Shown here: in pieces, positions 3,976-51,174 of the stretch
Layout of the letters: each line of letters starts with the position of its first letter
Numbering within the stretch: the stretch's first letter is position 1
Assembly: GCA_964187785.1 (NCBI GenBank)
Contig: OZ076419.1
Span: 20,584,001 to 20,648,000, forward strand
DNA: 64,000 nt
Reading direction: 5' to 3'
Origin: Amphiscolops sp. MND2022
Taxonomy: Eukaryota
Notes under the pieces: model-generated
The model's database searches: none
Told to the model about the DNA's origin: nothing
What the model saw: the letters and a program-made list of their open reading frames with translations, nothing else
Position numbers and translations under genes: made by a program

Positions 3976-5211
3976 TGTAAATACTAGATTACTGTCGATA
4001 CTCATCTCAAACTGAAATTGCCAAGGAACAAAAGAGGGTAACCACAAACAAAATACGGTACTAGTACGAAGTAGCTAGTTCAATTACCTTCTCTAGCTCG
4101 ATCTTTCTCTTGAGCTCCGATAACGGCTCATCATCGGACTCGACGACTCTCCATTTTGGTTTGAGATCTGGGCGAATCTCGAGCAGCGGCCTTCGAGACT
4201 GGGATGCTGCATCGCTTCGCTTTGCAGATGTTATTGCCGAACTCACGGTACTGCCTTTTGATCTCTCTGGGCTGAGGCTTTCTCCTGGCAGTCAACAGCT
4301 CACGGCGTGCATAAGCATGCCAGCCATGTTAATGGACCCTTCTTTCTGATGCTAAAGAACTTATCTTTGCACCAACCGCAGCTTTCTAGGGGCGATCCGT
4401 AGGCGATCTTAAATCTCTCCACATCTTCATCTCGCGTGGCCGTGTCACAAAAACAAAGCTCCCACCACTCATAATAGCATCCACCGACACCCTCTTTCAC
4501 AGACTTTCTCAGACATGGCCTAATTTCTTGACCATAATGCAACGCAGATAGTAGAAACGAACAGGGTAGAATGCAACAGCTACAGACAAATTGAATGAAA
4601 TTCACTGTTCCATTGGATTTGGTCTGTATTGACAGTGACAGATCGATGCGCTGACTAATGTTCCCTCAACCCCTTGGACCTTGCTTTCATCAATCTGCTT
4701 CAAAACTTGTTAATTGCTTCGATAACCCTCGAAAACACAACAGTGCACTCGATTCATTCCCGAAGAGCTTCAATAAAATGTATTTTGACGTGTTTATTCT
4801 TTTCGGGCATGTTATTATGGCACTAAAATTACCCCAATTTTGTCCATTTTGATGGTTTTGTTGAATCCTCAAAATCCTGTAACTGCAGCTTATCCTCCGT
4901 CATTGGAAATGCTTTTGGAGCTCCACTTTCCCCTCCTTTATGTTTGACAGTAGTGATATATTGTTATTTTGAAGGTCGTTACCACAAAAATTCAATTCGA
5001 CACTGTAAGGTGTATTTGTGTATGTTGGGGAATGAAAATATCAATTTAGCGGGAGAACGGAATGAGATCTAACGCTTAAAATCTAATGCAATGAGATCTG
5101 AAGATTTAACTTCTCAAAATACGTAAAGACTTTTTTCAGGATTGCAATGATAAACTTCAACATTATCGAAGGCAAAAGAATATAAAGGTTTGTTCGAAGG
5201 CCATATTTACA
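3976..5211 (+). mobile_element. Solo-LTR-like sequence related to the LTR of the BEL/Pao element at 37220-50816 (copy 1)
   Basis: About 4030-5045 aligns with the reverse complement of ~37400-38500. It is bounded by the inverted termini TGTAAATA (3976) and TATTTACA (5204-5211). No target-site duplication is visible, so the exact ends are tentative. Confidence 0.65.
4061..4516 (-). pseudogene. Frameshifted homolog of the LTR-borne antisense ORF (copy 1)
   Basis: Starts gccATGtct as at 37964. Peptides KKGP..W, RRKPQPREIKRQYREFG and RPDLKPKWRVVESDDEPLSELKRKIELE; ends TSY-stop. Confidence 0.65.
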
Positions 5212-6438: not shown

Positions 6439-6563
6439 ACCTCCTTTTCAACACCGGCTTCATATTTAAATCACATTTTATATCCGATGCACACGGTCAA
6501 TTCAATGCACGAGAATGATGAACACGCAAGCTGAAAAACTTGACAGAGTTTGGACTGTCGAGG

Positions 6564-7795
6564 TGTAAATACTAGATTACTGTCGATACTCATCTCAAAC
6601 TGAAATTGCCAAGGAACAAAAGAGGGTAACCACAAACAAAATACGGTACCAGTACGAAGTAGCTAGTTCAATTACCTTCTCTAGCTCGATCTTTCTCTTG
6701 AGCTCCGATAACGGCTCATCATCGGACTCGACGACTCTCCATTTTGGTTTGAGATCTGGGCGAATCTCGAGCAGCGGCCTTCGAGACTGGGATGCTGCAT
6801 CGCTTCGCTTCGCAGATGTTATTGCCGAACTCACGGTACTGCCTTTTGATCTCTCTGGGCTGAGGCTTTCTCCTGGCAGTCAACAGCTCACGGCGTGCAT
6901 AAGCATGCCAGCCATGTGGACCCTTCTTTCTGATGCTAAAGAACTTATCTTTGCACCAACCGCAGCTTTCTAGGGGCGATCCGTAGGCGATCTTAAATCT
7001 CTCCACATCTTCATCTCGCGTGGCCGTGTCACAAAAACAAAGCTCCCACCACTCATAATAGCATCCACCGACACCGTCTTTCACAGACTTTCTCAGACAT
7101 GGCCTAATTTCTTGACCATAATGCAACGCAGATAGTAGAAACGAACAGGGTAGAATGCAACAGCTACAGACAAATTGAATGAAATTCACTGTTCCATTGG
7201 ATTTGGTCTGTATTGACAGTGACAGATCGATGCGCTGACTAATGTTCCCTCAACCCCTTGGACCTTGCTTTCATTAATCTGCTTCAAAACTTGTTAATTG
7301 CTTCGATAACCCTCGAAAACACAACAGTGCACTCGATTCATTCCCGAAGAGCTTCAATAAAATGTATTTTGACGTGTTTATTCTTTTCGGGCATGTTATT
7401 ATGGCACTAAAATTACCCCAATTTTGTCCATTTTGATGGTTTTGTTGAATCCTCAAAATCCTGTAACTGCAGCTTATCCTCCGTCATTGGAAATGCTTTT
7501 GGAGCTCCACTTTCCCCTCCTTTATGTTTGACAGTAGTGATATATTGTTATTTTGAAGGTCGTTACCACAAAAATTCAATTCGACACTGTAAGGTGTATT
7601 TGTGTATGTTGGGGAATGAAAATATCAATTTAGCGGGAGAACGGAATGAGATCTAACGCTTAAAATCTAATGCAATGAGATCTGAAGATTTAACTTCTCA
7701 AAATACGTAAAGACTTTTTTCAGGATTGCAATGATAAACTTCAACATTATCGAAGGCAAAAGAATATAAAGGTTTGTTCGAAGGCCATATTTACA
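6564..7795 (+). mobile_element. Solo-LTR-like sequence, copy 2
   Basis: Duplicate of 3976-5211 with the same TGTAAATA...TATTTACA ends. Confidence 0.65.
6649..7100 (-). pseudogene. Frameshifted homolog of the LTR-borne antisense ORF (copy 2)
   Basis: As copy 1, but KKGPHGWHAYARRELLTARRKPQPREIKRQYREFG is contiguous and the terminal TAG has become TGG at 6649-6651. Confidence 0.65.
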
Positions 7796-26590: not shown

Positions 26591-29500
26591 GCAGATATTC
26601 AGAAGGCAATCTTCATTCTGGTACTCCTGCCCAGAAACGACAGAAGACAGTGACAATGGTTACTCCTGATGTCAATTCTCGTGTCCAAAACCGACCAACG
26701 TCATCAGCGACGACTGTTACTACTGAAGGCAGCTCTCCTGTCCAAAAGCGACGAAAGTCAACAGCGACGATTGTCACACCTGAAATAAGTTCGACTCCAG
26801 TTCCACCAATCAATGTTGAAAGTCATCGCAAAGAGAATAGCGAGTCGTATATCATGTGGGTTGGGGATGAGTGAACTGGAAGGTCCTTTAGAATCTTTCG
26901 TTAACAACGACAACACTCAACTTGCCCTTTAATTGAACTCTTTTCTCGAAGGAATGATGTACTTCAAAGCAGTCAACGATCCAGCGTTGATGGGAGATTT
27001 TCTAATTTTGAACGACTGTCAAATATTAAGCAAGCTGAAATCGGAGAACTTTCAAATGTTACCGATTGTTTAAAGAGTTTGCGAAGAGACAAAACGGCGA
27101 GTCTGAAAGTTTGGGATCCGCGTCTGCAAGTTGGATATTGCATTTGGAAGGTGGCACAATTGTGAGTATTTTGAGTTTGGATGTTGGAAATCGTTTGAAA
27201 CAGACAAAACTGCGAGTCTGAAAATTGGAGATCCGCGACTGCAAGTAGGAGATCGTCATTTGGAAGGTGGTACAGTTGCAAGTATTTCAAGGTTGAAAGT
27301 TGGAGCTCAAGAAAATTCTCACAAATTAGCCGCCGAGACACACATTGATCCAAATGCAAGCATAGAATGGAACGTGCAAAGAGCTTCCTATGCGCGAAAT
27401 GATGGAAACGATGATACAAGCGAAACAGACTCAAGTGATGCTGATGTTGATAATGATACGGAGGTTGACACTGGAGAACCAAAATTACGTGCCATTAATA
27501 AGCTACCAGAGCAAACGCCCCTCAGTGGAAAAGTGTATTCTTTGCTCAAAGGTAGTGCATAAAATGAGAGATCATTTCAGTAACCTGCGTAAACTTTCAC
27601 AGAGTGACCCTTAACATACCACAGTACTATCAAATCGGATCAGTGCTTTCTGTGCAATGTTTGTAATCTGAGGATGGGTGATAAACACAGGCACCCAAAG
27701 GAACACAATGCAGAGAGAAGTGGAGAACGCGAGGACATCAGTTTTTTTCCTCTGAGCATTGTTGCAATAGAGAACTTTGAAAGTGACCTACACTTACCGA
27801 ATTCTCAGTTTGTCGAGGAGTGGATAAGTCATCAAATAGGCATATTTTCTGATGGAGATGTATCGGGACAATGGGACATACCCGCAACTCAAAAAACTTT
27901 ATGTAAAGCAATTCACGCAACTGCCACACTGACAGTTGCGCTTTGCTGACACACTTGCTCTAGCTGTCTTAGTGGGAAATTGTTTGGACGAAAAATCTTA
28001 CCCGAATTACAGTGGCCAATTACATTTGTAGTTTGGAGAAACTAATCAAGTACGCCAAGGCTTATAAACCATCGCAAATCGCTGGACGTTCCCAAGTTGA
28101 AACTCCTTCGTCTTCTTTGATGAGCAGATATTCAGAAGGCAATCTTCATTCTGGTACTCCTGCCCAGAAACGACAGAAGACAGTGACAATGGTTACTCCT
28201 GATGTCAATTCTCGTGTCCAAAACCGACCAACGTCATCAGCGACGACTCTGTGTGATAGGGGCAGGATTGTGTATTTGCAGTTGGAAGCCGGAAGTATTC
28301 ATCGAATCTAGTGTGCAAAAGGGGAGTACATACAGTAGTAGCATTCCAGTTTGTTTTATCATTCTGAAGTGGCGTGCTTGAGTTGACATGAAATGAGATT
28401 TGATTGGTGCAATAATTTTTACACTGTTGTTTCTATAAAACTTGTTGTTTTGTCATTCGTTTATATTTCTCTGGATAGTTGGTTAATAGTTGTATGCTTG
28501 AAATTTCTGGCTTGAATAAAATTACTGAACAGCTCCCAAGAGTGCAAAAGATGGGAAAACATCTTTGGGCTGCTTCTAATGTCAAAAAATTTTGTGGAAC
28601 TTATTTTCGTTTTTCACGAGAGTTGACAAAGCCATGTCGCAGAATCTACTGAAAAACTGGGGTCTTTTCTTTTATCCCCCCAGCCTACTAGGCTTAAAAT
28701 TTTCCCTCATCAACATTTCATTTTTTAGGATATGAATCGTAGTATATGACTCACTCCTCAATGAATTGGGGGAGGGGGTAGGGTGACAAATCTGCTGCCG
28801 GAACAGAAAAGACCCAACCTATCAAAGACGTGAAAAACTGGAAATTTGCGGAAAATTGATTTCAGATCGTGAGAGCTGTGATTTGTCTCCACCAAGCATT
28901 GATTTTGCCTTTAACCTACAATATTCGAGTCTTTTCTGTCATTTCCCCCAAAACTCATTAAGAAGTGTTTTCTATTCGAGTTGCTTCGATTCTTTGTTAC
29001 CCCAGTTTGTCCTCATTTGAATGCATTAACTATGACCTAGCTGCTGCTTTTACGGGTTTCTCGGTTCCGCTAGTTGCATTTCGTGAAAAGCCAGTTGCAC
29101 TTGTTTAAACGTCAGTTTCAGATCGCAGAGAGCCAGTTGTGCATGGTTCGCTGCACAGCGTTATTTTGTAATTGAAACTGTGAATTTCGTTTGAATTTTG
29201 AATGTTTTATGCGCTACCTATGTATTACCAAATGCAGTCCAAACCTGTAAAGAACAGTTGAAGGATCTAATCGATCGTTTGAGGAGCTTTTTTCTTTGGT
29301 TTTACCTTGGTTATTAGTTCTGGAATAGTGAAGCGCCAGCTAGCATTTACAGCAAAGCGCCAGTAATTAGTAGTCGCTGAGTTGGCGTTTTACAGTTCCA
29401 ACAGAGGATGCCACTTTTGGTAAACTCCTAGTTTTTTGTCCTCCCGCCGTGTTAAACGCCAGTTGCTTATCACTTTTTGACAAAAATTCGATGACCATAA

Positions 29501-31182: not shown

Positions 31183-32126
31183 CCAATGACGTGGCCACCA
31201 AAAGAGATCACTCCCGTCAATGACGGGCCTACATGAAGAGAGCCAAAAGAGATCACTCCCGCCAATGACGGGCCTCCGCCAAAAGAGATCACTCCCGCCA
31301 ATGACGGGCCTCCGCCATAAGAGATCACTCCCGCCAATGACGGGCCTCCGCCAAAAGAGATCACTCCCGCCAGTGACGGTCCTCCGCCAAAAGAGATCAC
31401 TCCCGCCAATGACGGACCTCCACCAAACGAGATCACTCCCGCCAATGACGGGCCTCCGCCAAAAGAGGTCACTCCCGCCATTGACGGGTCTCCACCAAAG
31501 AGATCACTCCCGCCAGTGACGGGCCTCCACCAAAAGAGATCATTCCCGCCAGTGACGGGCCTCCACCAAAAGAGATCATTCCCGCCAATGACGGGCCTCC
31601 ACCAAAAGATACATCACGCCAATGACGGGCCTCCACCAAAAGATCACTCCCGCCAATGACGGGCCCCCACCAAAAGAGGTCACTCCTGCCAATGACGAGC
31701 CCCACCAAAAAAGGTAACTCCCGCCAATGACGGTCCTCCACCAAAAGAGATCATTCCCGCCAATGACGGGCCTCCACCAAAAGATACCTCACGCCAATGA
31801 CGGGCCTCCACCAAAAGATCACTCCCGCCAATGACGGGCCCCCACCAAAAGATGTCACCCCCGCCAATGACGGGCCCCACCAAAAGAGGTCACTCCCGCC
31901 AATGACGGTCCTCCACCAAAAGAGATCATTCCCGCCAATGACGGGCCTCCACCAAAATATCAATCACGCCAATGACGGGCCTCCACCAAAAGATCACTCC
32001 CGCCAATGACGGGCCCCCACCAAACGAGGTCACTCTCGCCAATGACGGGCCCCCACCAAAAGAGGTCACTCCCGCCAATGACGGGCCTCCACCAAAAGAA
32101 GTCACTCCGCCACTGACAGGCCTCCA
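31183..32126 (+). repeat. 36-bp minisatellite (~26-27 units, some 33-34 bp), likely coding (NDGPPPKEITPA)n
   Basis: Consensus aatgacgggcctccaccaaaagagatcactcccgcc; units abut directly with no spacers. It lies between the SET domain and the zinc fingers. Confidence 0.95.
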
Positions 32127-32269
32127 GTAAATGACGTTACCAAAGTAAATATTTCAGAACTGTTTCTTTATGGCAAGGACGAAGAAGATTCTCAAGGCAA
32201 AAAAGAAAAACGTAATCGCCATCGTCGAAATAAACTGAAAACTTGTCTTCACTATGCAACATGAGTTGA

Positions 32270-35695: not shown

Positions 35696-35989
35696 CAAGT
35701 TTCTTAAATCTTAATCCATTAGATATTATTCCATCTTCCAAATTTGAGCATGATGACATGCTTAGCTTTGATTTTCCTTCAGTTTTTGCTCATACATCTG
35801 AATTTAGTCTTTCTCTTGCCAAACTAATACTTTTGAAACTTTCACCAAGTTGCAAGAGCAATCATCCGAAACGTTTTCTACTCCTACGATTCTGAACGAA
35901 GTTTTGATATTCGGGCTTCACAAAGATCCACAACCTTTCCACTGCATGCCCTATACTAATTACTCGGAAGCTATGTTTCTCGAATATTT

Positions 35990-37219: not shown

Positions 37220-38537
37220 TGGATCTTCGTGAAGCTCGAATGTTAAAACTTCGTTCAGAATATTAGAAGGGATGGACAACGCTTAGGATGATTGGTCTTG
37301 GTTCTTGGTGAAATAATTTCAAAACCTTCAGTTTAACAAGTGAAAGACTGAATTTCAGATTATTGAGTAACAACTGAGGGAAAATCAACAAAATTAAGCA
37401 TGTCACCATGCACAAATTATATTTTCATTCATAAACATGTACAAGTACACGTTACAGTGTTAAATCAAACTTTTGCGTTAACGATCATCAAAATGATAAA
37501 TAATTGCTACTGTTTAACAGTGAAATAGGGAAAGTGGAGCTGCAAAAGTATATCCGATGATGGAAGATACACTGGAGCTGAAAGATTTTGAGGATTTAGT
37601 AAAACCATCGAAATGGGCAGAATGGGGTAATTTTAGTGACCATAATAAAATGGCGGAAATGAGTGTGCAAGCGAAACAACGTTATATTCAAGCTATTTGG
37701 ACATTAGTCTAGTGCACTGTTGTGTTTTTGAGAGTTATAAAAGCAATTAACAAATATTAAAGCAAATTGATGAAATCAGGATCACGGGGCAGAGGAAATG
37801 TTAATCAGCACATGGATATGTTACTGCCAATGCAGACTGAATTCCATAGAACAGTGCACTTCATTTCTGTTGTCTGTTGCTGTTGCATTCTATTCTGTTC
37901 GTTTCTATCTTCTATCTGCGTTGCTTTATGGTCACTAAATTGCAGACGTTTTTCAAGTAAGCCATGTCTAAGAAAACGTTTGAAAGGAGAGTGTCAGTGG
38001 ACGCTGACTATTAAGAGCAGGATGAAAGGGAGGAGTATTGGTTCGGTGACTGGGTCACCCGAGATGAAGAGGAGGATGCGGAGAGGTATGATAAGTTGCG
38101 AATCCCCCCCAGAAAGTTGGGTTGGTCCAAAGACAATAAGTTCTTTGGCAAGAGAAAGAAGGGTCCGCATGGTTGGCACGCTCATCCACGCCGCAAGCGA
38201 TTGACAGCCAGACGAAAACCTCAGGTGAGAGAAATAAATAGACAATACCGTGAATTCGGCAAGAAAGCTTGTAAGGAGGATGGGCGAAGGGATGCAGTAT
38301 CCCAGTATCGAAGGTTGCTGCTAGAGGTTCGCCCGGATCTCAAACCAAAGTGGAGAGCCGTCGAGTCCGATGATGAGCCGTTATCGGAGCTCAAGAAAAA
38401 GATCGAGCTTGAGCACTTGATTGAAGAGGAGCTGCAAGCAGAAGCGGCTCAAGGTGCTAGTACATCGTACTAGTACCTTCTTTTGTTTGTTGTTACCCTC
38501 TTCTTCTGTTAAAGTTTTCTGTTTATTGGTAAGTCCA
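37220..38537 (-). repeat. 3' LTR of the outer element (1318 bp)
   Basis: On the minus strand it begins TGGAC right after the PPT and ends GATCCA; it matches 49919-50816. Confidence 0.9.
37964..38473 (+). pseudogene. Antisense ORF of 169 codons in the U3-side part of the LTR, one premature TAA at 38012; function unknown
   Basis: MSKKTFERRVSVDADY*EQDEREEYWFGDW...KKGPHGWHAHPRRKRLTARRKPQVREINRQYREFG...ELKKKIELE...GASTSY. Homologous frames are retained in the diverged solo-LTR copies. Confidence 0.7.
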
Positions 38538-38550
38538 TTCCGCCCACCTT
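38538..38550 (-). promoter_or_regulatory. Polypurine tract of the outer element
   Basis: aaggtgggcggaa on the minus strand immediately before the 3' LTR. Confidence 0.8.
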
Positions 38551-38565
38551 GAGCAGTAACACTGC

Positions 38566-39387
38566 TCAACTCAAAGGTAATTTCCTCAATTTGATTGCAG
38601 GTTTCACATACTCTCCACGTGCTGTTCTGACTTTGACAACTCGACAGATTTTGTCTTTACCACGATAAACCTCAACGATTCGTCCTAGAGGCCATTGAAG
38701 TGGTGGTGTAGTCTCGTCTGTTAGAAAAACGACATCTCCCTCTTCGAGGTTTGAGTTCGCTTCGCGATTCCACTTTCGTCTCGTCTGAAGTGTCGTTAGA
38801 TACTCCGAGCTCCAACGCTTCCAGAAAAGAGATATCAATCGTTTTAGAAAAATCCATCTTCTTTGCGGATTAACTTCTTCTTCACATATTTGGAGGGAAC
38901 TAGTTTTCTCGGCAACTGATAGGTATTGGATTTCTTTCCCACTGACAAGCATTGACGGCGTGAGAACCGTATCATCCGTTGGATCATCAGAGGCTTCAAT
39001 TAGTGGTCTAGAGTTGGGGATTGCTTCAATTTCGCAGAGTAGTTTAGCAAGTTCCTCGTAGTTTAGGACATTGTTTCCCATTGTCTTCTTCAGGTGGTGT
39101 TTACCTGATTTGTTTCCTGATTCCCAGAGGCCTCCCCAATGTGGCGATCCTGGCGGAATCATGAACCATTGAGAACCCAAATCGACTGCAAGATTTGGCA
39201 AAGATTCTTTCGTGTAGTCGTGAGACAAAACTTCTTCAAGTAGTTTCAGCTCGTTTGCTGTTCCCACAAAGTTCGTACCATTATCGGAATACATTCGAAT
39301 AGGTGCACCTCTACGAGCAACAAAACGGCGCAATGCAGCTGTACATGCAGGTGTGCTAAGTGACGGTACTAGTTCCAAATGAATGGC
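38566..39387 (-). pseudogene. Outer element integrase, C-terminal part
   Basis: HLELVPSLST...RRFVARRG...SDNGTNFVG...PHWGGLWE...FWKRWSSEYL...WPLGRIVEV; it rejoins 45911 at STRAI|HLELV. Confidence 0.92.
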
Positions 39388-40310
39388 TGTTGGCGCCAGT
39401 CATCAGAAGGCAAAGAAACTCGATTCAGAACATGCTGGTTGAGAAACAAGACTTAAACTCCAAAAAACTTAGATGAAAATTTGAAGAAAAGTCCATCATC
39501 AATTTTCTGCAAACCCCCCCCCAAATGGGTTTTCTCCAAGACTATTAATCATAGAGCCATGAAACTTGGCACACATACGCAAGTACCTAACACAAACACA
39601 CCGGCCAAGTTTCAAGGTCATCCACCCAATATAACCCCCTTTACCCCGCACATGTGTAGTTTTCAAGGTCATTGAACCAAAAATGTAAACTTTGTTATTT
39701 ACCCATATGACCCACATTAGAATGTAACTCTGTTGCAATTGATGATATTTACATAGTGTAAACATATTTTCTAACCCACCTAACCAACATGCCAAAACCA
39801 CCATGTGCTTTGTTTACATAGCCAATAACTTTAATAATTCACCTAAATGTCATTTTATTTATACCACATATTTCAACTGATATTTGTTCTATATTTACTG
39901 TAGAATTGTAAACCACATTTATACCATTATTAGGTAGAGATTTTCTCCACTGAAAAGCTATAGTCAAGTTGGGTCTCAGGACCGCGAGACTAATTAATCT
40001 ACTTCTCAATCTTCACAAATTTTCGCTAGAGTCAGAGCGACTAAGTAGCTACTCTTATAGTTGGAGAGCCGGAGCGCGTGAAGATACAGTGAGGGAAGTG
40101 TGTGCAGGATCACATCGGATCCAATTCAGTGCAAAAAGGAATCGCAGGAGATTCCACGGGTCACATCGGACCCACCAGCCAAAAGATACAGTCCTTTAAA
40201 ACAAGAAAATCAGGAATTGTTCATTAACGGTCCACAGTACTAAGCAACGGATCAGGGCGGCGTAAAGCTTGTCAAGCCTCAGCGCAGGATAAGGGCAAGC
40301 AGCCGTTACA
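39388..40310 (+). repeat. 5' LTR of the nested element (923 bp)
   Basis: Near-identical to 44986-45910: about 12 substitutions and a 2-bp homopolymer indel, counted by eye. Confidence 0.95.
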
Positions 40311-40312
40311 TT

Positions 40313-40330
40313 TGGTCCGCCGACCCGGAC
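40313..40330 (+). promoter_or_regulatory. Primer-binding site of the nested element, tRNA-Tyr-like
   Basis: TGGTCCGCCGACCCGGAC, 2 nt after the LTR end. It resembles the complement of tRNA-Tyr 3' ends; the tRNA assignment is inferred. Confidence 0.7.
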
Positions 40331-40429
40331 AACTCGTTGGTGGACGATCCGGACTAGAAGACGACGACTCGTTGGTGGACAGCTGAGAAGATTGCCCAGG
40401 AAGAACAAGTGTCTGATTCTTGGAGTCTC

Positions 40430-40657
40430 TGACTTTGTGTCTCTGGGAGATTGGGCTACTGTGTCTCTGGGAGATTGGGACTTTGTGTCTCTGGGAGATT
40501 GGACTACTGTGTCTCTTGGAGATTGGGCTATTGTGTCTCTGGGAGATTGGGCTATTGTGTCTCTGGGAGATTGGGATACTGTGTGTCTGGGAGATTGGGC
40601 TAGTGTGTCTCTTGGATATTGGGCTATTGTGTCTCTGGGAGATTGGGCTATTGTGAA
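40430..40657 (+). repeat. 24-bp tandem repeat (~9-10 units) in the leader of the nested element
   Basis: Consensus ttgtgtctctgggagattgggcta, between the PBS and the gag ATG (40690). Confidence 0.93.
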
Positions 40658-40689
40658 CTTGGAACTAAACTCAATCGACAAGAGAAGAG

Positions 40690-43600
40690 ATGGCAGAACC
40701 AAAACGGTTCGATATCAACAAAATCGAAAACTTTCTGGAGAACTCTGCTGACAAAGCCCAAACGTTGAGTTATTGGAATGCAGCTGTCGAACACGGTAAG
40801 ACTGTCAAAGAAATTGATGAGAACCTAGCTAGCAATGTTGACGACAAGCAGATAGCAGATTTACTGCTAAGACGAACAGATGCCATAAACAGGAGAGATC
40901 GGGTCATTATGGCAGTCGAAAATGCAATCAAATTCAAGTACCAACCGCAGATTCCCGAAATGTTCTCAGCAGTGAACAGAGCAATGCAGAGCCGATGGGT
41001 TGAGTTACAGCAGCAAAGCTCTAGCGTTGGAAGGGTAAAAACACTGATGTCAGCATTGCAAGATGGAAATCAGATACTAAATTACTTGGATCTTGACGAA
41101 AAGAAACGTGCTATCGATAGACTAATGGTTAGCAACGAAAAGTTGCGAGACGATTCAATCGCAAATGGCAAAGTTGTCGACGAAGAAGATTATGCTGCCG
41201 CATGTCAAGAATTGCTGCAGAAACGGTCTGACATTAAAACGAAGATTGAAGATCTGCTGAAGTCAGGAGAAGGAGGAGCCATTTTGCGAAGTCTTGAAGA
41301 CGCTGAACAAAGACTGGCAGACGTTCGCGCAAGCGTAGCCGCAGACAAATCAAGTAGAAATGGCACTTCACCACAAAAGGAGCCCGAACCAGACGAGGAG
41401 CAGAAAGAAGCTCCTCAATGGTCATAACGCGGATGACAGCCAAGAGCGAAACAAATGTGCTAGATCATTGCCAATAGAAGAATTGAGCATACACTCGCGA
41501 AGTAAAAGAACCAAAAGCAACAAAACGTCTGTGATTTCAAAAACATCTAGTGCAAGATGATTTCTCGATTTGGAGCTGAAATCTTTGAAAGAGCAAGAAG
41601 AACTTCAAACCCGCCTAGAGAAACTGAGACGTGAAGCAAACGAAGTTAAGATAGCTAGCTTGCAAGATGAGATGGTTAGCTTGCAAGAGGAGATGGCCCG
41701 CAAAGCCAAAATTGCTGAAAAGGAACTACAAATGGCGCAAGTGTCGAGTAGTGATGGGTCTAGCTTCCGTAGTATCTCACCAGTCGGGACTCCAGATGAC
41801 AATCTGACGAAAGTCTCAGGATGGATGGACAAGACAGAAGAAGCTGAAAACGTGGCATCGCAGATTAACGTGCCATCTGTATACCAGCAAACGTCCGTCT
41901 CAGCACCAGTGATTACAGTACAATCAACGCATGGAGGACAATGCTCTGCGCAAGTGAAGGACTTGAAACCCTCAGTGAAACCGACCATATCCATAGAAGC
42001 CGCTGTGCGAGGTCTTGGAATGGACAAAACAAAGACTGTCATAGGAGTTGGCAGCCAAAGAGCAACAACGCAACCAGAAGTGAAATTCGCCATCAATGAC
42101 GTCGTTAATTAAGCCGTCAATGACCCTTATGGCAAACCAAAGCTGGGTACCACCTAGGAATGGAGGCAACCCGAGTAGTGCATTTTAAGTACAACAACTT
42201 GAGAACACAAAGAAGCAGTATATGCCAAGTCAAGGGCCAAACATAGTGTCAAATGCGAGAGAAGACTACTACATCAGATCTAGCTTGCCAAAATTGAAGT
42301 TGGCAGAATTCTCAGGTGACCCATTGGAGTGGCCAGAGTGGTCACAACTATTCCAAGCAACCGTCCATGCAGCGAACATAGACGACAGTGTAAAAATGAA
42401 TCACCTGAAAACCATGGTCACAGGCAAAGCCAAGGAGGCGATTGCTGGCCTTGGGTACACTGCTGAGATGTACAATGTGGCGTGGAACGTTCTAGTTTGA
42501 AACTTTGGAAAACCTCAAATGGTTGTGAACGCCCAGTTAAAGCGAATCTATTCGTTCCCTCCGATAAAACCTTATGATGGAGCCGCATTGATCAAGTTTG
42601 CGAGAATAGTGTCGAGTTGCGTGAATGTTTTGACACAATTCAACTACGTGGGAGACCTCAACTCAGAAGGAGTTCTGGGCAGTGCCACAAGGAAGTTAAC
42701 ACTGGACATGAAAACGAAGTGGCTCACTTATGTCAAGCAAATGAACCTGTGTCAACCTGGACTCGCTGTGTTCAGTGAATAGCTCAATGATATAGCAGAT
42801 GTTCAAGACGAATTGCTTTTGTCTTCAAACCCGAATGCTGATCGCGCGAAGTCGAACTACAAGGAAAAGGTCAAAGGCTCCACGTTTGCCACATCAACAA
42901 CAAACACAACCAGTGACAACTCAAAATACCAGCGAGAGTGTGCGCTGAAAGATGGCAAACATCCAATATGGAAATGTGAGAAGTTCAAGAAGATGAACGT
43001 CGAAGAAAGAGGACAAAAGGCGAAAGAGCTGAAATTGTGCTTCAAATGCTTGTCAGATGCACATCAGATGAGAAATTGCTCTGGTAGACTCTGCGATGTG
43101 AATGGTTGCGGAAAACCTCATCACAGATTGCTACACAGACCATACAAGAACGTGGAACAAAAGAAAAATGTTGAAATGTCGATGAGGTCTCCAACCTGTC
43201 CTCAATGAGAAGCAGTGGAGTGCTTCCAGTCATTCCAGTATCGATAGGGAGTGGGAGCAAAACTGTGAAAACGTTCGCTTTGTGCGACTCTGGAGCAAGC
43301 CTGTCCTTTGTGGACGAGAGCCTGATGAAAACGCTAAATCTGACGGGACAGCCAGTGGATTTGAATGTTGCAGGGATTCATGGAACGTCAGATATTAGTA
43401 GCAAACGACTTCGAGTCAGGATTGGAGATCAAGACGGAAAAGTCAAAGAATATATCATGGCCTATAGTCATCCCGACGTAAATGCAGGAAATCGAACGTA
43501 CGACCTCAAGAAATTGAAAGAAGTGAAAGTCATCTTGAGTCAAGATTGCTACCACTTGCATAGAGCAATCGACTATAGAAAGTGTGGAAACGCCAAGCCC

Positions 43601-43700
43601 TGGGCAGTGCAAACGAAACTGGGATGGATGCTCAGTGGACCCTTGCCTCAACAAGAAACTGCGAAGTTCGCCAGTGAATGTTTGGTTTTTGCAGATGTGG
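40690..43700 (+). pseudogene. Nested element gag and aspartic protease, broken by stops and frameshifts
   Basis: LPKLKLAEFSGDPLEWPEWSQLF (DUF1759-like), CFKCLSDAHQMRNC and CDVNGCGKPHHRLLH knuckles, ALCDSGASLSF protease, KLGWMLSGP. Confidence 0.9.
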
Positions 43701-44236
43701 ATCCATTGGTGGATCAGATGAAAACTCGGTCGAGCATGGAAGTGCATACTTCCCACTGCAGCGTATCCGAAATGTCCAAGGAAAATACGGAGATCTCACC
43801 AGACATATTCGTTGTAGAAAGAAACTGGCAGGAAGTCAGTACTAAACCCCTCCTTTTGGAGATCAAGCAAGTCTGGCAAGACGAAATGCACCTAGCTGTG
43901 AGTGACCATATGATAGTCGAACAAGACAAAACATGGGTTTCTCAATTGTAGAAAAAAAGAACGAACATGAAAGTTTTGCAATTAAATCAAACCTCCGAAC
44001 CCTGGAAGACATTACTGTGATGCTTGATTTAGAATAAGTTAAACAGAATATGGATGTCGCCTCTGTGCGACAGCATGTGAAAGAAAAGCAATCAACTCAA
44101 AAGCAAGCAATAAAGCTCGCTGTCAACACTCTAACACATGAAGAGGGAAGAAAATGTTCTCAAATGGACAAAAAAATGAATTCGTAAAAGAGTGTCATGT
44201 CGAACTTCGTGAATATTCAAGAGGAAAAGCGATGTA

Positions 44237-44985
44237 TTGAGACACTCCAATGATTTATTGAAACGCAACCAACCGTCTGAAGAGAACACAAGTGATCGAA
44301 CAAAAGCCGTAAAGATGTCATTTTGTAGAAGACATGATGATGAACTGAAAGATAAACTGCTGGACAAAATTATTCCAAACGACAGTGAAAAGTGTAACAA
44401 CTGGATAGGCTATGGAAACTCGGGAATGGATGCAGTGGCACAAGCTAACCCTAATGCGTACACCAAACTCAAACTGAGCAATGGCCACCGCAAGCAATTC
44501 GAGAAACGATTATTGAAGGTTGAACATAGCTCAAACCTATTACATGGAATGGTCGAAAGTGGTCAATTGACAACTGGCATCCTATATGCAAAGATTGTGA
44601 TTGATGAATTTGCAGATGAATTATCGCTGATGGAAACGCGATTGAGTTCATCAAAAGCACAAACAACAAAAAACTCGGAAAATGGGCCTTTCATAGGGCC
44701 GGCTGTATCATGGGAAGAAATGATTATGCAACATGAATTCTTTGGAAAATGGAATAAAGAAGAAGTTAGACAACTAGAAGTAAATGATTTGGTTTGGAAA
44801 GTAGATGAAAATGTAAAAAGAGCACATTACAAGATGGGTAGAGTGATAGAAGTCTATCATGGAAGCAATGGGCGAGTGAGATCAGCGCTGGTGAAAACTG
44901 AAGGTGGAAAACTCAAAAGACCAGTAGTGAAACTGGCACCCATGTTCTACAGAAGTGTTTTTCGGGAGAAAAACAGGGCCGGCAA
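44237..44985 (+). pseudogene. Collapsed pol remnant ending in the integrase C-terminal domain, followed by the PPT
   Basis: KWN...LEVNDLVW...YKMGRVIEVYHGSNGRVRSALVKT...KRPVVKLAP. No YxDD, RNaseH or DDE core is seen. Purine tract gggagaaaaacagggccggcaa at 44964-44985. Confidence 0.8.
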
Positions 44986-45910
44986 TGTTGGCGCCAGTCA
45001 TCAGAAGGCAAAGAAACACGATTCAGAACATGCTGGTTGAGAAACAAGACTTAAACTCCAAAAAACTTACATGAAAATTTGAAGAAAAGTCCATCATCAA
45101 TTTTCTGCAAAACCCCCCCCCCAAATGGGTTTTCTCCAAGACTAATAATCATAGAGCCATGAAACTTGGCACACATACGCAAGTACCTAACACAAACACA
45201 CCGGCCAAGTTTCAAGGTCATCCACCCAATATAACCCCCTTTACCCCGCACATGTGTAGTTTTCAAGGTCATTGAACCAAAAATGTAAACTTTGTTATTT
45301 ACCCATATGACCCACATTAGATTGTAACTCTGTTGCAATTGATGATATTTACATAGTGTAAACATATTTTCTAACCCACCTAACCAACATGCCAAAACCA
45401 CCATGTGCTTTGTTTACATAGCCAATAACTTTAATAATTCACTTAAATGTCATTTTATTTATACCACATATTTCAACTGATATTTGTTCTATATTTACTG
45501 TAGAATTGTAAACCACATTTATACCATTATTAGATAGAGATTTTCTCCACTGAATAGCTATAGTCAAGTTGGGTCTCAGGACCGCGAGACTAATTAATCT
45601 ACTTCTCAATCTTCACAACTTTTCGCTAGAGTCAGAGCGACTAAGTAGCTACTCTTATAGTTGGAGAGCCGGAGCGCGTGAAGATACAGTGAGGGAAGTG
45701 TGTGCAGGATCACATCGGATCCAATTCAGTGCAAAAAGGAATCGCAGGAGATTCCACGGGTCACATCGGACCCACCAGCTAAAAGATACAGTCCTTTAAA
45801 ACAAGAAAATCAGGAATTGTTTAGTAACGGTCCACAGTACTAAGCAACGGATCAGGGCGGCGTAACGCTTGTCAAGCCTCAGCGCAGGATAAGGGCAAGC
45901 AGCCGTTACA
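44986..45910 (+). repeat. 3' LTR of the nested element (925 bp)
   Basis: Matches 39388-40310 and is followed by the TSD. Confidence 0.95.
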
Positions 45911-48900
45911 ATGGCCCTTGTTGAGAAGCAGACGAACAATGCCATGTAGCACTTGAATATTTCCTTTGTCTGAAAGTCTTCGACAGTGAAGGCACCGGTG
46001 AAGTCCACGCCAGTGTACGTGAAAGGTGGCGATGGTGTAATCCTTTCTTCTGGTAAATCACCCATGAGAGGTGCTTGGATCCTGGAATTGTAGCAAAAAC
46101 ATTTGATGCAGTTATGGATGTGTTTCCGGATGAGAGTTTTGGCATGTATGATCCAAAAGTTTCGTCTAATCTCAACTAGGGTAGCATTTGCTCCAGCGTG
46201 GAGCATCTTGAGGTGAACATCTGCGATGATCAGTCTTGAAAGTGGACTTTCTTTTGGAATGAGGATGGGAAAGCGCTTTGTTTCTGCAGTTGTCCAATTA
46301 TTTCTAATCCTTCCGCCCACCTTGAGGATCCCATCCTCAATAAAAAGATTAAGCTGCGAAACTGAACTTTTCCGTGGTAGTGGACGTTCATTCTGTAAGC
46401 AGGCAATCTCCTCTTCGAATTGGACTCCTTGCTCCTAACGAACAATGTCTTCAAGAACCTTTTGTCGGAACTTAAGTAATCTTGGGCCATTCTTCTTCAA
46501 AAATAGCAGTTTTTTGAGACCAGAATTTTTCATTCGTAGCTTGTCGATGAAGAACTGAACATAACAGTGCACTTGAATGGCTTTAGACAGAGTGCACTGT
46601 TCGTTTAGATTGATTCGATCCTGATCCTGTGTGTCTGAAAATGGTCTCAAAAAACACAAAATGTGGCTTTTCTTCCTGTCGGTGTCCGTTTTGCTAGTTT
46701 GCGGTTGTTTAGGAATGCTGAGACTTCCTAGCCATCTTGGACCGTTCCACCAGAGTGCTGCTGAGTCTAATTGATCTGCTGATACTCCTCGAGTCGCTAG
46801 ATCAGCTGGGTTATCTTCACTTGGGACATGTTTCCAGTGTTTTAGCTTCAGGTTGTCCTGAATTGCTTGGACACGGTTGGCAATGAAGGTATTCCAGCTT
46901 CGCGGGATTTCTTGAAGCCAACTGAGCACCAAAGTAGAGTCCGTCCATTCATGAAGTTGTTCCGGAATGAAGTTAATCTTCTCTAAAATTGGTAGGACAG
47001 CTTTCAACAAACTGCATCCAAGAAATGCTGCACGAAGTTCTAATTTTGGGACAGTGAGAGGCTTCAAAGGTGCAACTTTTGACTTGGAAACCAAAAGGTT
47101 GGTTTCTTGTGTGTCGAGGCAGCGAACATAGATGCAAGCAGCACATGCTAGCTCCGAAGCATCGCAAAATAAGTGCAATTCGAAACGCTTTTTCAGTATG
47201 TGTCTCGGAATCTTCAATTTTGTAATCAATGGTAGTGTTTTACGCCATTTCATGAACTCCGATTGAACATCCGATGGCAATTCCTCATCCCAATTAACTC
47301 CACCAACCCAGCAAGATTGCATTATTAGTTTTAACTTCAGTGTAACAGGTGTTAATAGACCGAGTGGGTCGAAGATTGTTGAGATATCTGACAACATTGA
47401 TCGTTTAGTGAATTTCAGCTTGTCCGATTCCTTAATTGTGAATGCAAAGTTGTCTTCGTTTGGCAGCCACTTTATTCCGAGCGTTTTGACACTATAGTGA
47501 TGCTCAGTGAAGTTTTTCTCACTTTCACGAAGGTTTGGTTGGAGATCTTCGATGATTTTCGCATTGTTGCTGGCGAATTTTCGCAAAATCATTCCGTGCT
47601 TTTCTAATTGTTTCGACACTGCATGGATAAGTTGAGTTGCTTCTCCTCGGTGTGAGCACCAGAGAGCATATCATCTACGTAGAAGTCTCTTTAGATGACG
47701 TTTTCCACTGACGAATCCTTTCCGGCTTCTTGAAATGAACGAATGGAATGGTATCCTGATGAGCCAATGCCATACGTCATTCGTGTCATTCGGTAGACCT
47801 TGATGGGATCACTTGGCGTGTCTCGCCAAAATAGTCGATGAAAATCCTTGTCATCTTTGTCTAATGCAATTTGTCTATACATTTTTGCAATTTCACCAGT
47901 GATTCCAATAGCATAGCATCGGAATCTGATGAGGTGATCAAACAAGTCGTCTTGTATCTTCGGTCCCACCAGGAGAACGTCATTGAGGGAAACTTTTGTG
48001 GATGTTTTCGCGCGGGCGTCGAAAACAACTCGAAGCTTGGTTGTTGTACTTTCTTTCTGGACACAATGATGTGGTAGGTAGAAGCATTTGTGAGGGTGCA
48101 AATCAAGTTCCTGCTTTGGGACTTCCTCCAGATGTTCTAAGTCAATGAACTCGTGTATGAAATCTCTATATTGCTGTTGGAGAATAGGGTTCGCTTCCAG
48201 TCATTTTTCGAGAATGAGAAAACGTCTCAACGCACTTGCCTTGCTTTCTCCAAGCGGTGTTGCATCAGGTTTGAAAGGCAGTTTGACTTGGAATCGTCCA
48301 TTCACCAACTTTGTTGTTGCTTCAAAGTGGTTTTTTGTAACCATCTCTGCTTCTGTGAGGGAAGGCTTGGTTGATGGCACCTCTTCAGTGCACCAGAATT
48401 TGCTGATATCTTGTGCACTGTTTGTTTGAAGAAAGTTGCAAACTGCTTCAGATGGAGAATTTTGGTCTCTAAATTTGGCAACTTCCGCTCTTCCGGTTAT
48501 GACCCAACCGAATACTCTTCGAGTGAATGTTAGATCTTTTTCTTGGAAACGATCATTTGTTGTCATTTGGTTCATCAATTCCACTCCGATCAACATGTCA
48601 ATTGATCCTGGATATGCAAAACTCTTGTCGGCTAGGTGGAGATCTTTTATGATGTCTATGGTCTTTACATCTATCGGTTGACTGGGAAGAGTATTTGTTA
48701 TTTTGGAAATTACATGCATTTCGGATACCACAAGAGGTTGATTTTGTGGTCTGATTGTTACTGTCACGACTCCATTTGTGGGTTTGGGTGCTGATGATCC
48801 CAGGTTGTAGATTGCCGTCTTCGTTCCTCGTCTTGGCAGCTGCAATTGTTGTGCAAGTCGTTCAGTTATGAAATTGGTTTCGGATCCACTGTCAAGGAGG

Positions 48901-49770
48901 GCTCGGGCCAAAAAAATTCGTCCATCCTTGTCTTCTAAAGCTAGTCGACAGGTGCCAAGCAGAGCCACCGTTCTTCCCTGATCTGACCTTGAAATGGCTT
49001 TGTCAGAAGTACTTGTCAGAGTTGTTTGGGTTTCGGGATTGTCCGTAGTTGAAACATTTGCCTTTTCGAAACGTTTTGGTTGATTGGCAACATCAATATG
49101 CAACAAACTGTGATGTTTCTTGCTGCAGTGACAACAAGAAAATTTACTGGGGCAGTTGACGACGGCATGTCCTAGTCTTAAGCAGTTAAAACAAAGATTC
49201 TTTGATTGAACAAACTGCTTCCTCTGTAATGGTGTCATTGTCTTGAACTCGTCAGTCTTTGCAACTGATTGATCCGTGGGTTGAACAGTGCACTTCCTAC
49301 TCTCCAGTTGGGTGGCGTACGATTGAAATTTCCGATCGGAAACGGATCCAGTGGCAGAATTCTGGTCACAAAATTTCGGTTTTTCTTGACCCTTTGTTGA
49401 ATTTTTCTCGATTGTTTCAAGTGCACGCGCCCTCGTGTCAATGAACTTGAGCAAATCAGGAAGTTTCTGCAACTCAGTGCCTGACTGCTGCAGTTCCCAT
49501 TGTTTTCGAGTTTCAATGTTTAGTTTACCAGAAAGAACATGCAAAAGAATTGGGTCCCAGTCGTTACAGTTGCATCCTTGGGCTTCCAGGGCAGCTACAT
49601 TCTCATGGAATGGTTCCAGTAGTTTTCTGAGACCATTTCCATTCTCGCACTTGATTACTCCTTGGTTGAGAATTTCGTCGAGGTGCATTCTCACAATAAA
49701 GCACTTATTAGCATATCGTTGCTCTAGGATGTTTCTGGCATTCTCGTAATTAGTAGACGAGAGTATTTAG
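45911..49770 (-). pseudogene. Outer element gag (N-terminus lost), protease, RT, RNaseH and integrase N-terminal part, with multiple disruptions
   Basis: CFNCLRLGHAVVNC, ALLDSGSETNF, YLPHH...KLRVVFDA, FYVDDMLSG (~47660-47690), LHLFCDAS, KSKVAP, NPADLATRG, HAG...CIKC, PFTYTGVDFTG. Confidence 0.92.
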
Positions 49771-49892
49771 TTAACTAGAGTATTTACCTCGGGACCTTTT
49801 GAGCCGTCGGAGCTTGTCTGTCGTCAGGCTGCTCACTGCTTCTGATTGCGAAGCATTTCGTTCTTCATGACCGTCCATTCTATCACGTTGTC

Positions 49893-49913
49893 TGCTCCCG
49901 GGTCGCGGCACCA
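49893..49913 (-). promoter_or_regulatory. Primer-binding site of the outer element, tRNA-His-like
   Basis: Minus strand TGGTGCCGCGACCCGGGAGC, a few T after the LTR-terminal CA. It resembles the TGGTGCCGTGAC complement of tRNA-His. Confidence 0.7.
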
Positions 49914-49918
49914 AAAAA

Positions 49919-50816
49919 TGGATCTTCGTGAAGCTCGAATGTCAAAACTTCGCTCAGAATTTTAGAAGGGATGTGCAACGCTTAGGATGATTGGTCTTGG
50001 TTCTTGGTGAAATAGTTTCAAAACCTTCAGTTTAACAAGTGAAAGACTGAATTTCAGATTATTGAGTAACAACTGAGGGAAAATCAACAAAATTAAGCAT
50101 GTCACCATGCACAAATTATATTTTCATTCATAAACATGTACAAGTACACGTTACAGTGTTGAATCAAACTTTTGCATTAACGATCATCAAAATGATAAAT
50201 AATTGCTACTGTTTAACAGTGAAATAGAGAAAATGGAGCTGCAAAAAAATTTCCAATGATGAAAGATACACTGGATTTTCAGGATTTCAGTTGAAAGATT
50301 TTCAGGATTTAGTGAAACCATCGAATTGGGCAAAATGGGGTATTTTTAGTGACCATAATAAAATTGCGGAAATGAGTGTGCAAGCAAAACAACGTTGTAT
50401 TCAAGCTATTTGGACATTAGTCTAGTGCACTGTTGTGTTTTTGAGGGTTATAAAAGCAATTAACAAATATTAAAGCAAATTGATGAAATCAGGATCACGG
50501 GGCAGAGGAAATGTTAATCAGCACATGGATATGTTACTGCCAATGCAGACTGAATTCCATAGAACAGTGCACTTCATTTCTGTTGTCTGTTGCTGTTGCA
50601 TTCTATTCTGTTCGTTTCTATCTTCTATCTGGGTTGCTTTATGGTCACTAAATTCCAGACGTTTTTCAAGTAAGCCATGTCTAAGAAAACGTTTGAAAGG
50701 AGAGTGTCAGTGGACGCTGACTATTAAGAGCAGGATGAGTGGGAGGAGTATTGGTTCGGTGACTGGGTCACCCGAGATGAAGAGGAGGATGCGGAGAGGT
50801 ATGATAAGTTGCGAAT
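49919..50816 (-). repeat. 5' LTR remnant of the outer element, lacking the part equivalent to 38104-38537
   Basis: Aligns with 37220-38103 up to gataagttgcgaat, with visibly more differences than the nested LTR pair. Confidence 0.9.
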
Positions 50817-50854: not shown

Positions 50855-51174
50855 ATATGCCCCACATTATATTTTCGCTCTCAAAAAGTATGTTTTTGCA
50901 GATGTAGACAACTGCTCTGCCCACTTTGCCCAATTTCGATGCCCACTTTGCCGAATTCCAATGCCCACTTTGCCGGAAAAAAATTCGGCAAAATGGGCAA
51001 GGTAGGGACACTTTGCCGAATTCAAGGAATATGGGACATTTTGCCGAAACCCATTTTGCCGAATTAGGCAAAGTGTCCCTACCTTGCCCATTTTGCGGAA
51101 CTTTTTTTCGGGAAAGTGGGCATCGAAATTCGGCATACATCGCATATGCCCCACATTTTATTTTTGCTTTCAGA
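50855..51174. mobile_element. Foldback/MITE-like palindromic element between ~30-bp direct repeats
   Basis: Inverted arms of ~75-95 bp (about 50928-51024 and 51060-51135) built of tgcccactttgccg motifs. atatgccccacatt...gct.tca.aa occurs at 50855 and 51144. Confidence 0.6.

What the first reader, a model, noticed from the sequence alone, without database searches (positions are those of the whole stretch)
37964..38473. Antisense ORF inside a BEL/Pao LTR with codon-level evidence of purifying selection
Seen: the first ~570 nt of the outer LTR contain a 169-codon ORF opposite to gag-pol. Over 34 codons (38159-38260 versus reverse complement 6824-6925 of the diverged solo-type LTR) I count 13 codons with synonymous-only changes and 6 with amino-acid changes. 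The gccATGtct start and the TSY-stop end are conserved in both families. Established: antisense LTR-associated genes are known in some retroviruses (HTLV-1 HBZ) and extra antisense ORFs in some plant LTR retrotransposons; I know of none for BEL/Pao. Inferred: an accessory protein (acidic N-terminus, Arg/Lys-rich middle, coiled-coil-like end) is encoded by the LTR itself. The TAA at 38012 is in both LTRs of this copy, so it predates the insertion.
Basis: partly seen in the sequence, partly recalled or inferred. Interest (0 to 1): 0.75.

Follow-up and report, generated by a model that had tools for sequence, protein, structure and literature searches.

The report
Backwards gene inside a retrotransposon's LTR
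A family of animal BEL/Pao jumping genes carries a 169-codon gene of no known family, written backwards inside its terminal repeat, whose copies show selection on the protein, and the protein likely works as a nuclear helper that regulates the element, although its expression is untested.

Summary
A 169-codon frame (37964-38473, +) lies wholly inside the 1,318-bp 3' LTR (37220-38537) of a minus-strand BEL/Pao element, with a stop at 38012 in both LTRs. Over the whole ORF dN/dS is 0.33-0.47, but outside that block it is 0.61-0.85 and not significant against the one decayed partner. Protein copies from unnamed ENA assemblies fill the gap. Of 80 records, 24 run uninterrupted from start to end. 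In 34 aligned copies, substitutions shared by 3 or more are conservative (mean BLOSUM +0.80, n=59), while private ones look neutral (-0.35, n=113; P=4e-6), in both halves of the protein. The sense-strand frame that shares third positions has stops in the core in both lineages. There is no distant relative among 1.84 billion proteins and no Pfam family; one weak annexin-repeat likeness appeared. Best reading: a lineage-restricted accessory gene, probably a nuclear, trans-acting regulator. Transcription, translation and function are untested. My literature searches found no LTR-embedded antisense gene in BEL/Pao.

The parts
37220..38537 (-). 3' LTR of the outer BEL/Pao element, 1,318 bp, TG...CA ends
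   Evidence: 95% direct repeat with 49919-50816; ends read from sequence
37964..38473 (+). Antisense ORF, 169 codons plus stop; broken in this copy by an in-frame stop at 38012-38014
   Evidence: uninterrupted natural relatives
38000..38089 (+). Acidic-aromatic N-terminal segment (residues 13-42; 14 D/E and 7 W/F/Y of 30 in natural copy P0045), predicted disordered
38162..38263 (+). Most constrained core (residues 67-100): basic, with an NLS-like PRRKR stretch, running into a predicted helix
   Evidence: 3 shared vs 22 private substitutions here, against 56 vs 91 elsewhere, P=0.007; PRRKR-like in 32 of 34 copies
38201..38329 (+). Predicted long amphipathic helix (about residues 80-122); also the stretch with a weak annexin-repeat likeness
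38354..38470 (+). Acidic C-terminal segment with an SDDEPL-like motif (34 of 34 copies) and a predicted helix at 140-164
38451..38479 (.). 13-bp hairpin over the stop codon, followed by a T-rich tract; not kept as a stable hairpin in the diverged copies
37928..37960 (+). 10-codon upstream ORF, in frame, ending 3 bases before the main ATG
37736..37742 (+). TATAAAA facing the ORF; candidate antisense promoter element, present in both LTRs of this element but absent from the diverged copy
38538..38549 (-). Purine-rich tract abutting the 3' LTR (PPT candidate)
   Evidence: sequence
38566..49800 (-). Decayed gag-pol (DUF1759, aspartic protease, RT-like stretch, Peptidase_A17, integrase, DUF5641), split by a nested element at 39388-45910
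49896..49913 (-). Primer-binding site candidate (begins TGG), 5 bases from the 5' LTR
   Evidence: sequence
49919..50816 (-). 5' LTR, truncated inside the ORF; holds only about the first 46 codons (from 50677), with the same stop
6599..7631 (-). Diverged (75%) partial LTR of a sister subfamily with a frameshifted copy of the ORF
4010..5047 (-). Tandem-duplication twin of the diverged copy; not independent

Best explanation
This BEL/Pao lineage carries a 169-codon antisense gene inside its LTR whose copies show purifying selection on the protein, and the protein is likely a small nuclear regulator that acts in trans on the element's own transcription or RNA. Shown: the position, the open frame in many natural copies, and selection on amino acids in the spreading lineages followed by neutral decay after insertion. 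Inferred: (1) the ORF lies in U3, because it occupies the LTR's 5' end; (2) a promoter in the non-coding half of the LTR fires away from gag-pol to make the mRNA; (3) the basic PRRKR core takes the protein to the nucleus and, with the amphipathic helix, binds nucleic acid or a partner, while the acidic-aromatic N-terminus and the SDDEPL segment recruit host factors, as retroviral Tat/Rev/HBZ-type accessory proteins do; (4) it works in trans, since this copy was inserted with the stop already in both LTRs. Because U3 is copied to both ends, each new insertion carries two copies and any solo LTR that keeps U3 would keep one.
For: DNA: 34 of 83 mismatches across the whole ORF are synonymous in this frame against 19.6 expected (P=0.0002); scan-corrected P about 0.001 for the core; dN/dS 0.33, or 0.47 with a 3:1 transition weight, while the non-coding LTR gives 0.79-1.16 in all six frames with that weight. 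Protein: 24 of 80 records are uninterrupted end to end, in several supported subfamilies down to 76-79% identity. Substitutions shared by 3 or more of 34 copies average +0.80 BLOSUM62 (35 of 59 positive); private ones average -0.35 (35 of 113), matching the neutral expectation of -0.32 to -0.48. The gap holds in residues 1-66 (P=0.0008) and 101-169 (P=0.003), with one copy per contig length (26 copies, P=6e-6), and on a tree (58 deep vs 140 terminal changes, P=0.0003). Seven contig lengths hold 2 or 3 copies, and two of them also hold a Pol about 87-94% identical to this element's, as paired LTRs would. Between those two, the ORF (94-95%) is as conserved as Pol (91%). Composition and motifs. 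Analogies: PMC7264820, PMC10186651, PMC1654176.
Against: On DNA alone the signal comes from one block in one pair; outside it dN/dS is 0.61-0.85, P=0.09-0.33. With the sharing threshold at 2 copies the core's special conservation is no longer significant (P=0.23), though the conservative-substitution signal stays. The protein records were found because a gene caller saw open frames, which inflates the count of intact copies, and their DNA context could not be read: same-contig placement rests on equal contig lengths. The candidate TATA box is missing in the diverged copy, and no conserved polyadenylation signal follows the stop. The fold is low-confidence (pLDDT 57) and gives no functional match. 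The nuclear-regulator role rests on composition and analogy only.
Confidence: 0.55

Rival explanations
1. The protein is real but is a suppressor of small-RNA silencing: two GW dipeptides hook Argonaute/PIWI proteins and the basic core binds RNA.
For: Two GW pairs in 29 of 34 copies; W71 invariant and W54 nearly so; strongly basic core. GW hooks in viral silencing suppressors are recalled, from no call.
Against: Two GW pairs are unremarkable in a protein with about 8 Trp and 8 Gly (my estimate, about 1 in 6 by chance); no family or fold match to a known suppressor.
Confidence: 0.15
2. The ORF grew around a captured fragment of a host annexin repeat (residues about 80-124), inserted backwards into U3 and then remodelled. 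This concerns origin and can coexist with the best explanation.
For: The profile of natural copies hits annexin chain 6tu2_A ungapped at E=0.004, and 4 of 7 PDB hits are annexins. A second, core-weighted alignment built after seeing that hit gives E=0.0002 and 6 of 11 hits. GC steps from 27-40% to 46-53% at the ORF. Earlier, unchecked notes report other host-like cargo in this genome's elements.
Against: Single sequences score only E=0.11-0.14. Pfam's annexin model is listed for none of 34 + 12 queries. No protein of 297-2,000 residues scored E<=10 on residues 72-128 (28 candidates, weak test). AlphaFold gives one unbroken helix where annexins have three short ones, on a shallow alignment (annexin layout recalled). 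The annexin calcium loop and hydrophobic helix before the match are not recognisable (my reading, recalled consensus).
Confidence: 0.12
3. The frame is one exon of a longer spliced antisense gene, so the 169-residue product is not the real protein.
For: A pyrimidine-rich tract and an acceptor-like AG lie just upstream of the ATG (sequence). Earlier unchecked notes describe spliced antisense cargo genes in this genome's Gypsy elements.
Against: Start Met and stop are both kept across subfamilies; the only donor-like site inside the ORF (38223) falls on a codon that differs in the other copies; no longer relatives in the full-library search.
Confidence: 0.1
4. No protein is made: the pattern comes from constraint on LTR DNA/RNA signals, a sense-strand frame, or chance in a purine-rich strand.
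For: The sense-strand frame sharing third positions shows the same low ratio (35 synonymous vs 22.1). The C-terminal third is conserved at all codon positions (6/6/11 mismatches). A hairpin covers the stop.
Against: That sense frame has two stops in the core in both lineages and no start codon in this copy. Nucleotide constraint does not predict conservative amino-acid changes on shared branches and neutral ones on private branches. At this base composition, 1 stop or fewer in 168 codons has P=0.0007 for one frame.
Confidence: 0.08

Closest known systems
Antisense additional ORFs of plant and fungal Ty3/Gypsy elements (aORF-3R: Grande gene23, RIRE2, Retand TRP28, Boty); PMC7264820, parts 1-2 of 3 read; PMC11963269, passages
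   Same: Antisense to gag-pol, kept in many copies, conserved about like the element's other proteins, no cellular relatives, proposed nuclear regulators
   Different: Those lie between pol and the 3' LTR in Gypsy elements; this one is inside the LTR of an animal BEL/Pao element, two per element, and has no TRP28 or other Pfam domain
HIV-1 antisense gene in U3-R of the LTR (HAP); PMC1654176, abstract and outline only
   Same: Same place and direction: an antisense gene wholly within the LTR's U3-R region
   Different: A retrovirus; RNA and protein were reported there, whereas here there is evolutionary evidence but no expression data; no sequence relationship was found
HTLV-1 HBZ; PMC10186651, passages
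   Same: Antisense accessory protein; N-terminal activation domain, nuclear, helical C-terminal part: a similar order of acidic, basic and helical segments
   Different: HBZ has a true bZIP; here no bZIP family match and a weak heptad pattern. HBZ's coding region lies mostly outside the LTR (recalled)
Antisense ORF of the mussel Steamer-like element MchSLE-1 (PMC10974842, abstract and Discussion), and LINE-1 ORF0 (as described in that Discussion)
   Same: Antisense ORFs in animal retrotransposons, driven from the 3' LTR or the promoter region; ORF0 is said to enhance mobility
   Different: Not BEL/Pao; the passages read do not place the MchSLE-1 ORF inside the LTR or test selection on it
Belpaoviridae / BEL-Pao elements; PMC8742986, whole text; PMC3118150, passages
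   Same: Domain order, PBS, PPT, LTRs
   Different: Described with gag, pol and sometimes env only, and LTRs of 0.2-1.2 kb; this LTR is 1.32 kb, 0.51 kb of it the extra gene. The word 'antisense' does not occur in the main text of the 62-genome survey (its supplements were not read)

Membership tests
BEL/Pao (Belpaoviridae), host element | Gag-protease-RT-RNase H-integrase order with BEL-type domains | tested here: met
   DUF1759, aspartic protease, Peptidase_A17, Integrase_H2C2, rve, DUF5641 in order on the minus strand; colinear with full BEL polyproteins across the RT stretch
BEL/Pao (Belpaoviridae), host element | Two LTRs with a PBS after the 5' LTR and a PPT before the 3' LTR | tested here: met
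   the 5' LTR is truncated
BEL/Pao (Belpaoviridae), host element | PBS for tRNA-Arg or tRNA-Gly (ICTV profile) | not tested
   The PBS looks tRNA-His-like from recall; no tRNA set was available to test it
BEL/Pao (Belpaoviridae), host element | LTR length 0.2-1.2 kb (typical range, descriptive) | tested here: not met
   1,318 bp; the excess is accounted for by the 510-bp ORF
BEL/Pao (Belpaoviridae), host element | Target-site duplication | not testable with these tools
   The outer end of the 5' LTR is missing
aORF-3R (antisense ORF between pol and 3' LTR) | Antisense to gag-pol | tested here: met
aORF-3R (antisense ORF between pol and 3' LTR) | Located in the internal region between pol and the 3' LTR | tested here: not met
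   Pol frame ends at 38566, the LTR begins at 38537, the ORF lies at 37964-38473 and recurs in the 5' LTR
aORF-3R (antisense ORF between pol and 3' LTR) | Present in most copies, conserved like the element's other proteins | tested here: inconclusive
   ORF 94-95% vs Pol 91% between two elements; the fraction of all genomic copies could not be counted (no genome)
aORF-3R (antisense ORF between pol and 3' LTR) | Own antisense transcript and nuclear product | not testable with these tools
   No reads to lay; no localisation data
Retand TRP28 antisense ORFs | PF04195 domain | tested here: not met
   Not listed for any of 34 members at E<=1
HBZ/APH-type bZIP antisense factors | C-terminal leucine zipper | tested here: not met
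   No bZIP Pfam match; 4 of 7 a/d positions hydrophobic, low hydrophobic moment
HBZ/APH-type bZIP antisense factors | N-terminal activation domain and nuclear localisation | tested here: inconclusive
   Composition and NLS-like motif fit; activity untested
Annexin repeat (as source of the core) | Significant sequence or profile match to the repeat | tested here: inconclusive
   E=0.004 and 0.0002 to one PDB annexin with profiles; Pfam annexin not listed
Annexin repeat (as source of the core) | Short-helix bundle of the repeat | tested here: inconclusive
   One long helix predicted on a shallow alignment; no annexin among the rows shown

The most novel reading that the evidence does not exclude
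A BEL/Pao lineage has turned its promoter repeat into a two-way unit that encodes its own trans-acting regulator or anti-silencing protein, unrelated to any known family and possibly rebuilt from a scrap of host annexin. Because the gene sits in U3, it is doubled at every jump and survives in solo LTRs, so even dismantled elements could keep supplying it and steer the activity of the whole family.
Probability: 0.35. Interest if true: 0.8.

Novelty: new variant of a known kind. Interest (0 to 1): 0.62.

Why it matters
BEL/Pao elements are described as having gag, pol and sometimes env, and LTRs are routinely treated as non-coding. A selected gene inside the LTR, on the opposite strand, would give this group a retrovirus-like accessory layer that annotation pipelines miss. 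The function of antisense accessory ORFs in retrotransposons is an open question (PMC7264820). This case offers a small single-frame protein, many natural intact and dead copies, and a mapped constrained core, so the question is testable with expression data and reporter assays.

Tried and rejected
No whole genome is held, so genome-wide DNA dN/dS could not be run. Sequencing runs: none was listed and no RNA holder was listed; this says nothing about expression. Related loci: 2 metagenome hits were chance matches in wrong frames of bacterial genes; 3 prokaryote-genome hits had similar weak scores (34-38% over about 50 residues) and were not followed; viral contigs gave none for the ORF or Pol. 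Families: none meaningful in Pfam, PHROGs, Rfam or the ESM Atlas (best 0.75). Fold searches gave nothing at E<=0.001 in PDB or BFVD and only generic helices at Z<=6.2. Homodimer prediction of residues 60-169: no answer. The other four frames show dN/dS of 0.9-2.6 and were rejected. CpG decay does not explain the third-position excess. The nested element's LTR has an AT-rich 120-codon antisense frame in a similar position, but it is frameshifted in the other LTR and unrelated in sequence, so it was not counted as support. The bacterial promoter scan was used only for the hairpin. Earlier scan notes: no match by sequence or by words. Literature searches for a BEL/Pao or LTR-embedded antisense ORF listed none; Repbase, GyDB and most subscription journals are outside that library. 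Rows left out of the 34-copy protein test: 39 of the 73 records then held, being partial, frameshifted, internally deleted or N-terminally fused.

Full report
Setting. The window is repeat-rich animal DNA; no whole genome is held. The host is not identified: the nearest named relatives of the element's Pol are arthropod BEL/Pao proteins at 36-45% identity, and a neighbouring single-exon receptor gene looks like generic metazoan 7TM proteins. The element spans 37220-50816 with gag-pol on the minus strand: DUF1759, aspartic protease, an RT-like stretch, Peptidase_A17, integrase and DUF5641 in BEL/Pao order. It is dead: pol has stops, a second BEL element is nested in integrase at 39388-45910, and the 5' LTR is cut off at 50816. 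The 3' LTR runs 37220-38537, with TG...CA ends and a purine tract beside it, and the Pol frame ends 28 bases outside it. The ORF at 37964-38473 is therefore inside the LTR, not in the internal region, and its first part recurs in the 5' LTR from 50677. The two LTRs differ at 29 of 884 aligned bases and share the stop at 38012.

It is exact: 13 synonymous-only and 6 replacement codons of 34, with mismatches 5/2/15 by codon position. Because the block was hand-picked, I scanned all 102-site windows in six frames across the aligned LTR and permuted the mismatches among sites of the same base. Over the whole ORF, 34 of 83 mismatches are synonymous against 19.6 expected (P=0.0002); dN/dS is 0.33, or 0.47 with a 3:1 transition weight, while the non-coding LTR gives 0.79-1.16 in all six frames under that weight. 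Against this, the ORF outside the block gives 0.61-0.85 and is not significant. The partner is a decayed partial LTR with five frameshifts in the ORF, and 5 of its 9 amino-acid differences in the core are absent from its closest database relative P0013, so decay after insertion dilutes the signal. Its twin at 4010-5047 is part of a tandem duplication and adds nothing.

Which frame. Only one other frame shows the signal: the sense-strand frame that shares third positions (35 synonymous vs 22.1 expected). It has two stops inside the constrained core, at the same places in both lineages, and no start codon in this copy. The other four frames give dN/dS of 0.9-2.6. The antisense frame is the one under selection.

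Other copies. A protein search returned 35 clusters at 61-95% identity, all from unnamed ENA assemblies; cluster look-ups and a full-library search brought the set to 80 records. Of these, 24 run without a stop from the start region to the C-terminal end, and they fall into several well-supported subfamilies. Seven contig lengths carry two or three copies, and two of those also carry a Pol about 87-94% identical to this element's, as expected for paired LTRs; this rests on equal contig lengths, since the DNA could not be read. These records exist because a gene caller saw an open frame, so their number is not itself proof.

Selection on the protein. A stronger test compares kinds of change. 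In 34 frame-intact copies (39 of the 73 records then held were left out as partial or frameshifted), residues seen in one copy only average -0.35 in BLOSUM62, 35 of 113 positive. That is what random single-base changes to this DNA give (-0.32 to -0.48; 31-36% positive). Residues shared by three or more copies average +0.80, 35 of 59 positive (P=4e-6). The difference holds in residues 1-66 and in 101-169 separately, with one copy per contig length, with a threshold of two copies, and when changes are placed on a tree. Residues 67-100 are short of shared changes (3 vs 22 private; P=0.007), though not at the two-copy threshold (P=0.23). This is the pattern of a gene that matters while the element is replicating and decays once a copy has landed. 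Between the two elements where both can be compared, the ORF (94-95%) is as conserved as Pol (91%).

The protein. It has an acidic-aromatic N-terminus (14 D/E and 7 aromatic of 30 residues), a basic middle (20 K/R of 58) with an NLS-like PRRKR in 32 of 34 copies, a predicted amphipathic helix at about 80-122, and an acidic tail with an SDDEPL-like motif in 34 of 34. The tail is a poor coiled coil. HMMER over 1.84 billion representatives found 19 proteins, all close family members (59-95% identity). Pfam, PHROGs, the ESM Atlas and three fold searches gave no meaningful match. One lead appeared: residues 80-124 align without gaps to an annexin repeat at E=0.004, or 0.0002 with a second alignment built afterwards. 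Pfam's annexin model, a search of longer proteins and the predicted single helix do not back it. I give it about 12% as the origin of the core.

How it most likely works. Position at the LTR's 5' end implies U3 (inferred; no TATA box and no usable polyadenylation signal were found in the gag-pol direction, so the borders are unmapped). A promoter in the AT-rich half of the LTR would fire away from gag-pol; a TATAAAA at 37736 faces the ORF in both LTRs but is absent from the diverged copy. A 10-codon upstream ORF ends three bases before the ATG, and a hairpin with a T-rich tract covers the stop; either could be regulatory, and neither is kept intact in the diverged copy. The product's layout fits a nuclear trans-regulator of the element's transcription or RNA. 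That this copy was inserted with the stop in both LTRs suggests the gene is not needed in cis and can be supplied by other copies. I put coding under selection at about 0.9 and this specific role at about 0.55; silencing suppression is the main functional rival.

Comparison with what is known. Antisense extra ORFs are known in plant and fungal Gypsy elements, between pol and the 3' LTR, with unknown but possibly nuclear roles (PMC7264820, parts 1-2 of 3; PMC11963269, passages). An antisense gene in U3-R was reported for HIV-1 (PMC1654176, abstract). HBZ is a nuclear antisense factor with an activation domain and a bZIP (PMC10186651, passages). A mussel Steamer-like element makes an antisense ORF RNA from its 3' LTR (PMC10974842, abstract and Discussion). 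The ICTV profile lists only gag, pol and env for Belpaoviridae (PMC8742986, whole text), and a 62-genome survey does not use the word antisense in its main text (PMC3118150, passages; supplements not read, and they may bear on LTR lengths). Passages of PMC8220671, PMC3485330, PMC5408684 and PMC6431247 added no closer case. Nine searches listed no LTR-embedded antisense gene in BEL/Pao; Repbase and most subscription journals were not searchable. This gene works like, but is not a member of, aORF-3R (wrong position) or HBZ (no zipper). Earlier notes from this scan, which I did not check, report other accessory genes in this genome's retrotransposons, including an esterase inside a BEL/Pao LTR; they make the setting plausible but are not evidence.

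Verdict. A real feature and a new variant of a known kind. Evidence for selection on a protein is strong; expression and function are untested, and the family is so far confined to one narrow lineage. Interest 0.62.

Noticed in passing
window 8819-28248: Tandem array of about 1.5-kb units, 90-98% alike, with recurring open frames of 160-226 codons on the + strand and no Pfam match in the four frames scanned.
   Followed up: partly
window 39388-45910: Younger BEL element nested in the outer integrase, opposite orientation, 925-bp LTRs 98.5% alike, 5-bp target duplication. Its LTR has an AT-rich 120-codon antisense frame (45051-45413) ending 65 bases from the LTR start, frameshifted at a G run in the other LTR.
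   Followed up: partly
window 3043-8215: 2,589-bp tandem duplication, 99.6% identical, holding both diverged LTR fragments.
   Followed up: partly
window 57270-59846: Degenerate relative of the nested BEL element on the minus strand.
   Followed up: no
window 60414-61424: Intact single-exon 7TM receptor-like ORF of 336 codons on the minus strand.
   Followed up: partly
window 35741-35930: Isolated 190-bp fragment, 78% identical to the PBS-side end of the outer LTR, inverted.
   Followed up: no
window 31183-32134: Minisatellite of about 36-bp units, 25 copies, with overlapping short open frames.
   Followed up: no
window 50918-51135: Palindromic, MITE-like stretch just beyond the cut end of the 5' LTR.
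   Followed up: no
P0004, P0067: In these natural copies the short upstream ORF reads straight into the main frame, adding 12 N-terminal residues.
   Followed up: no
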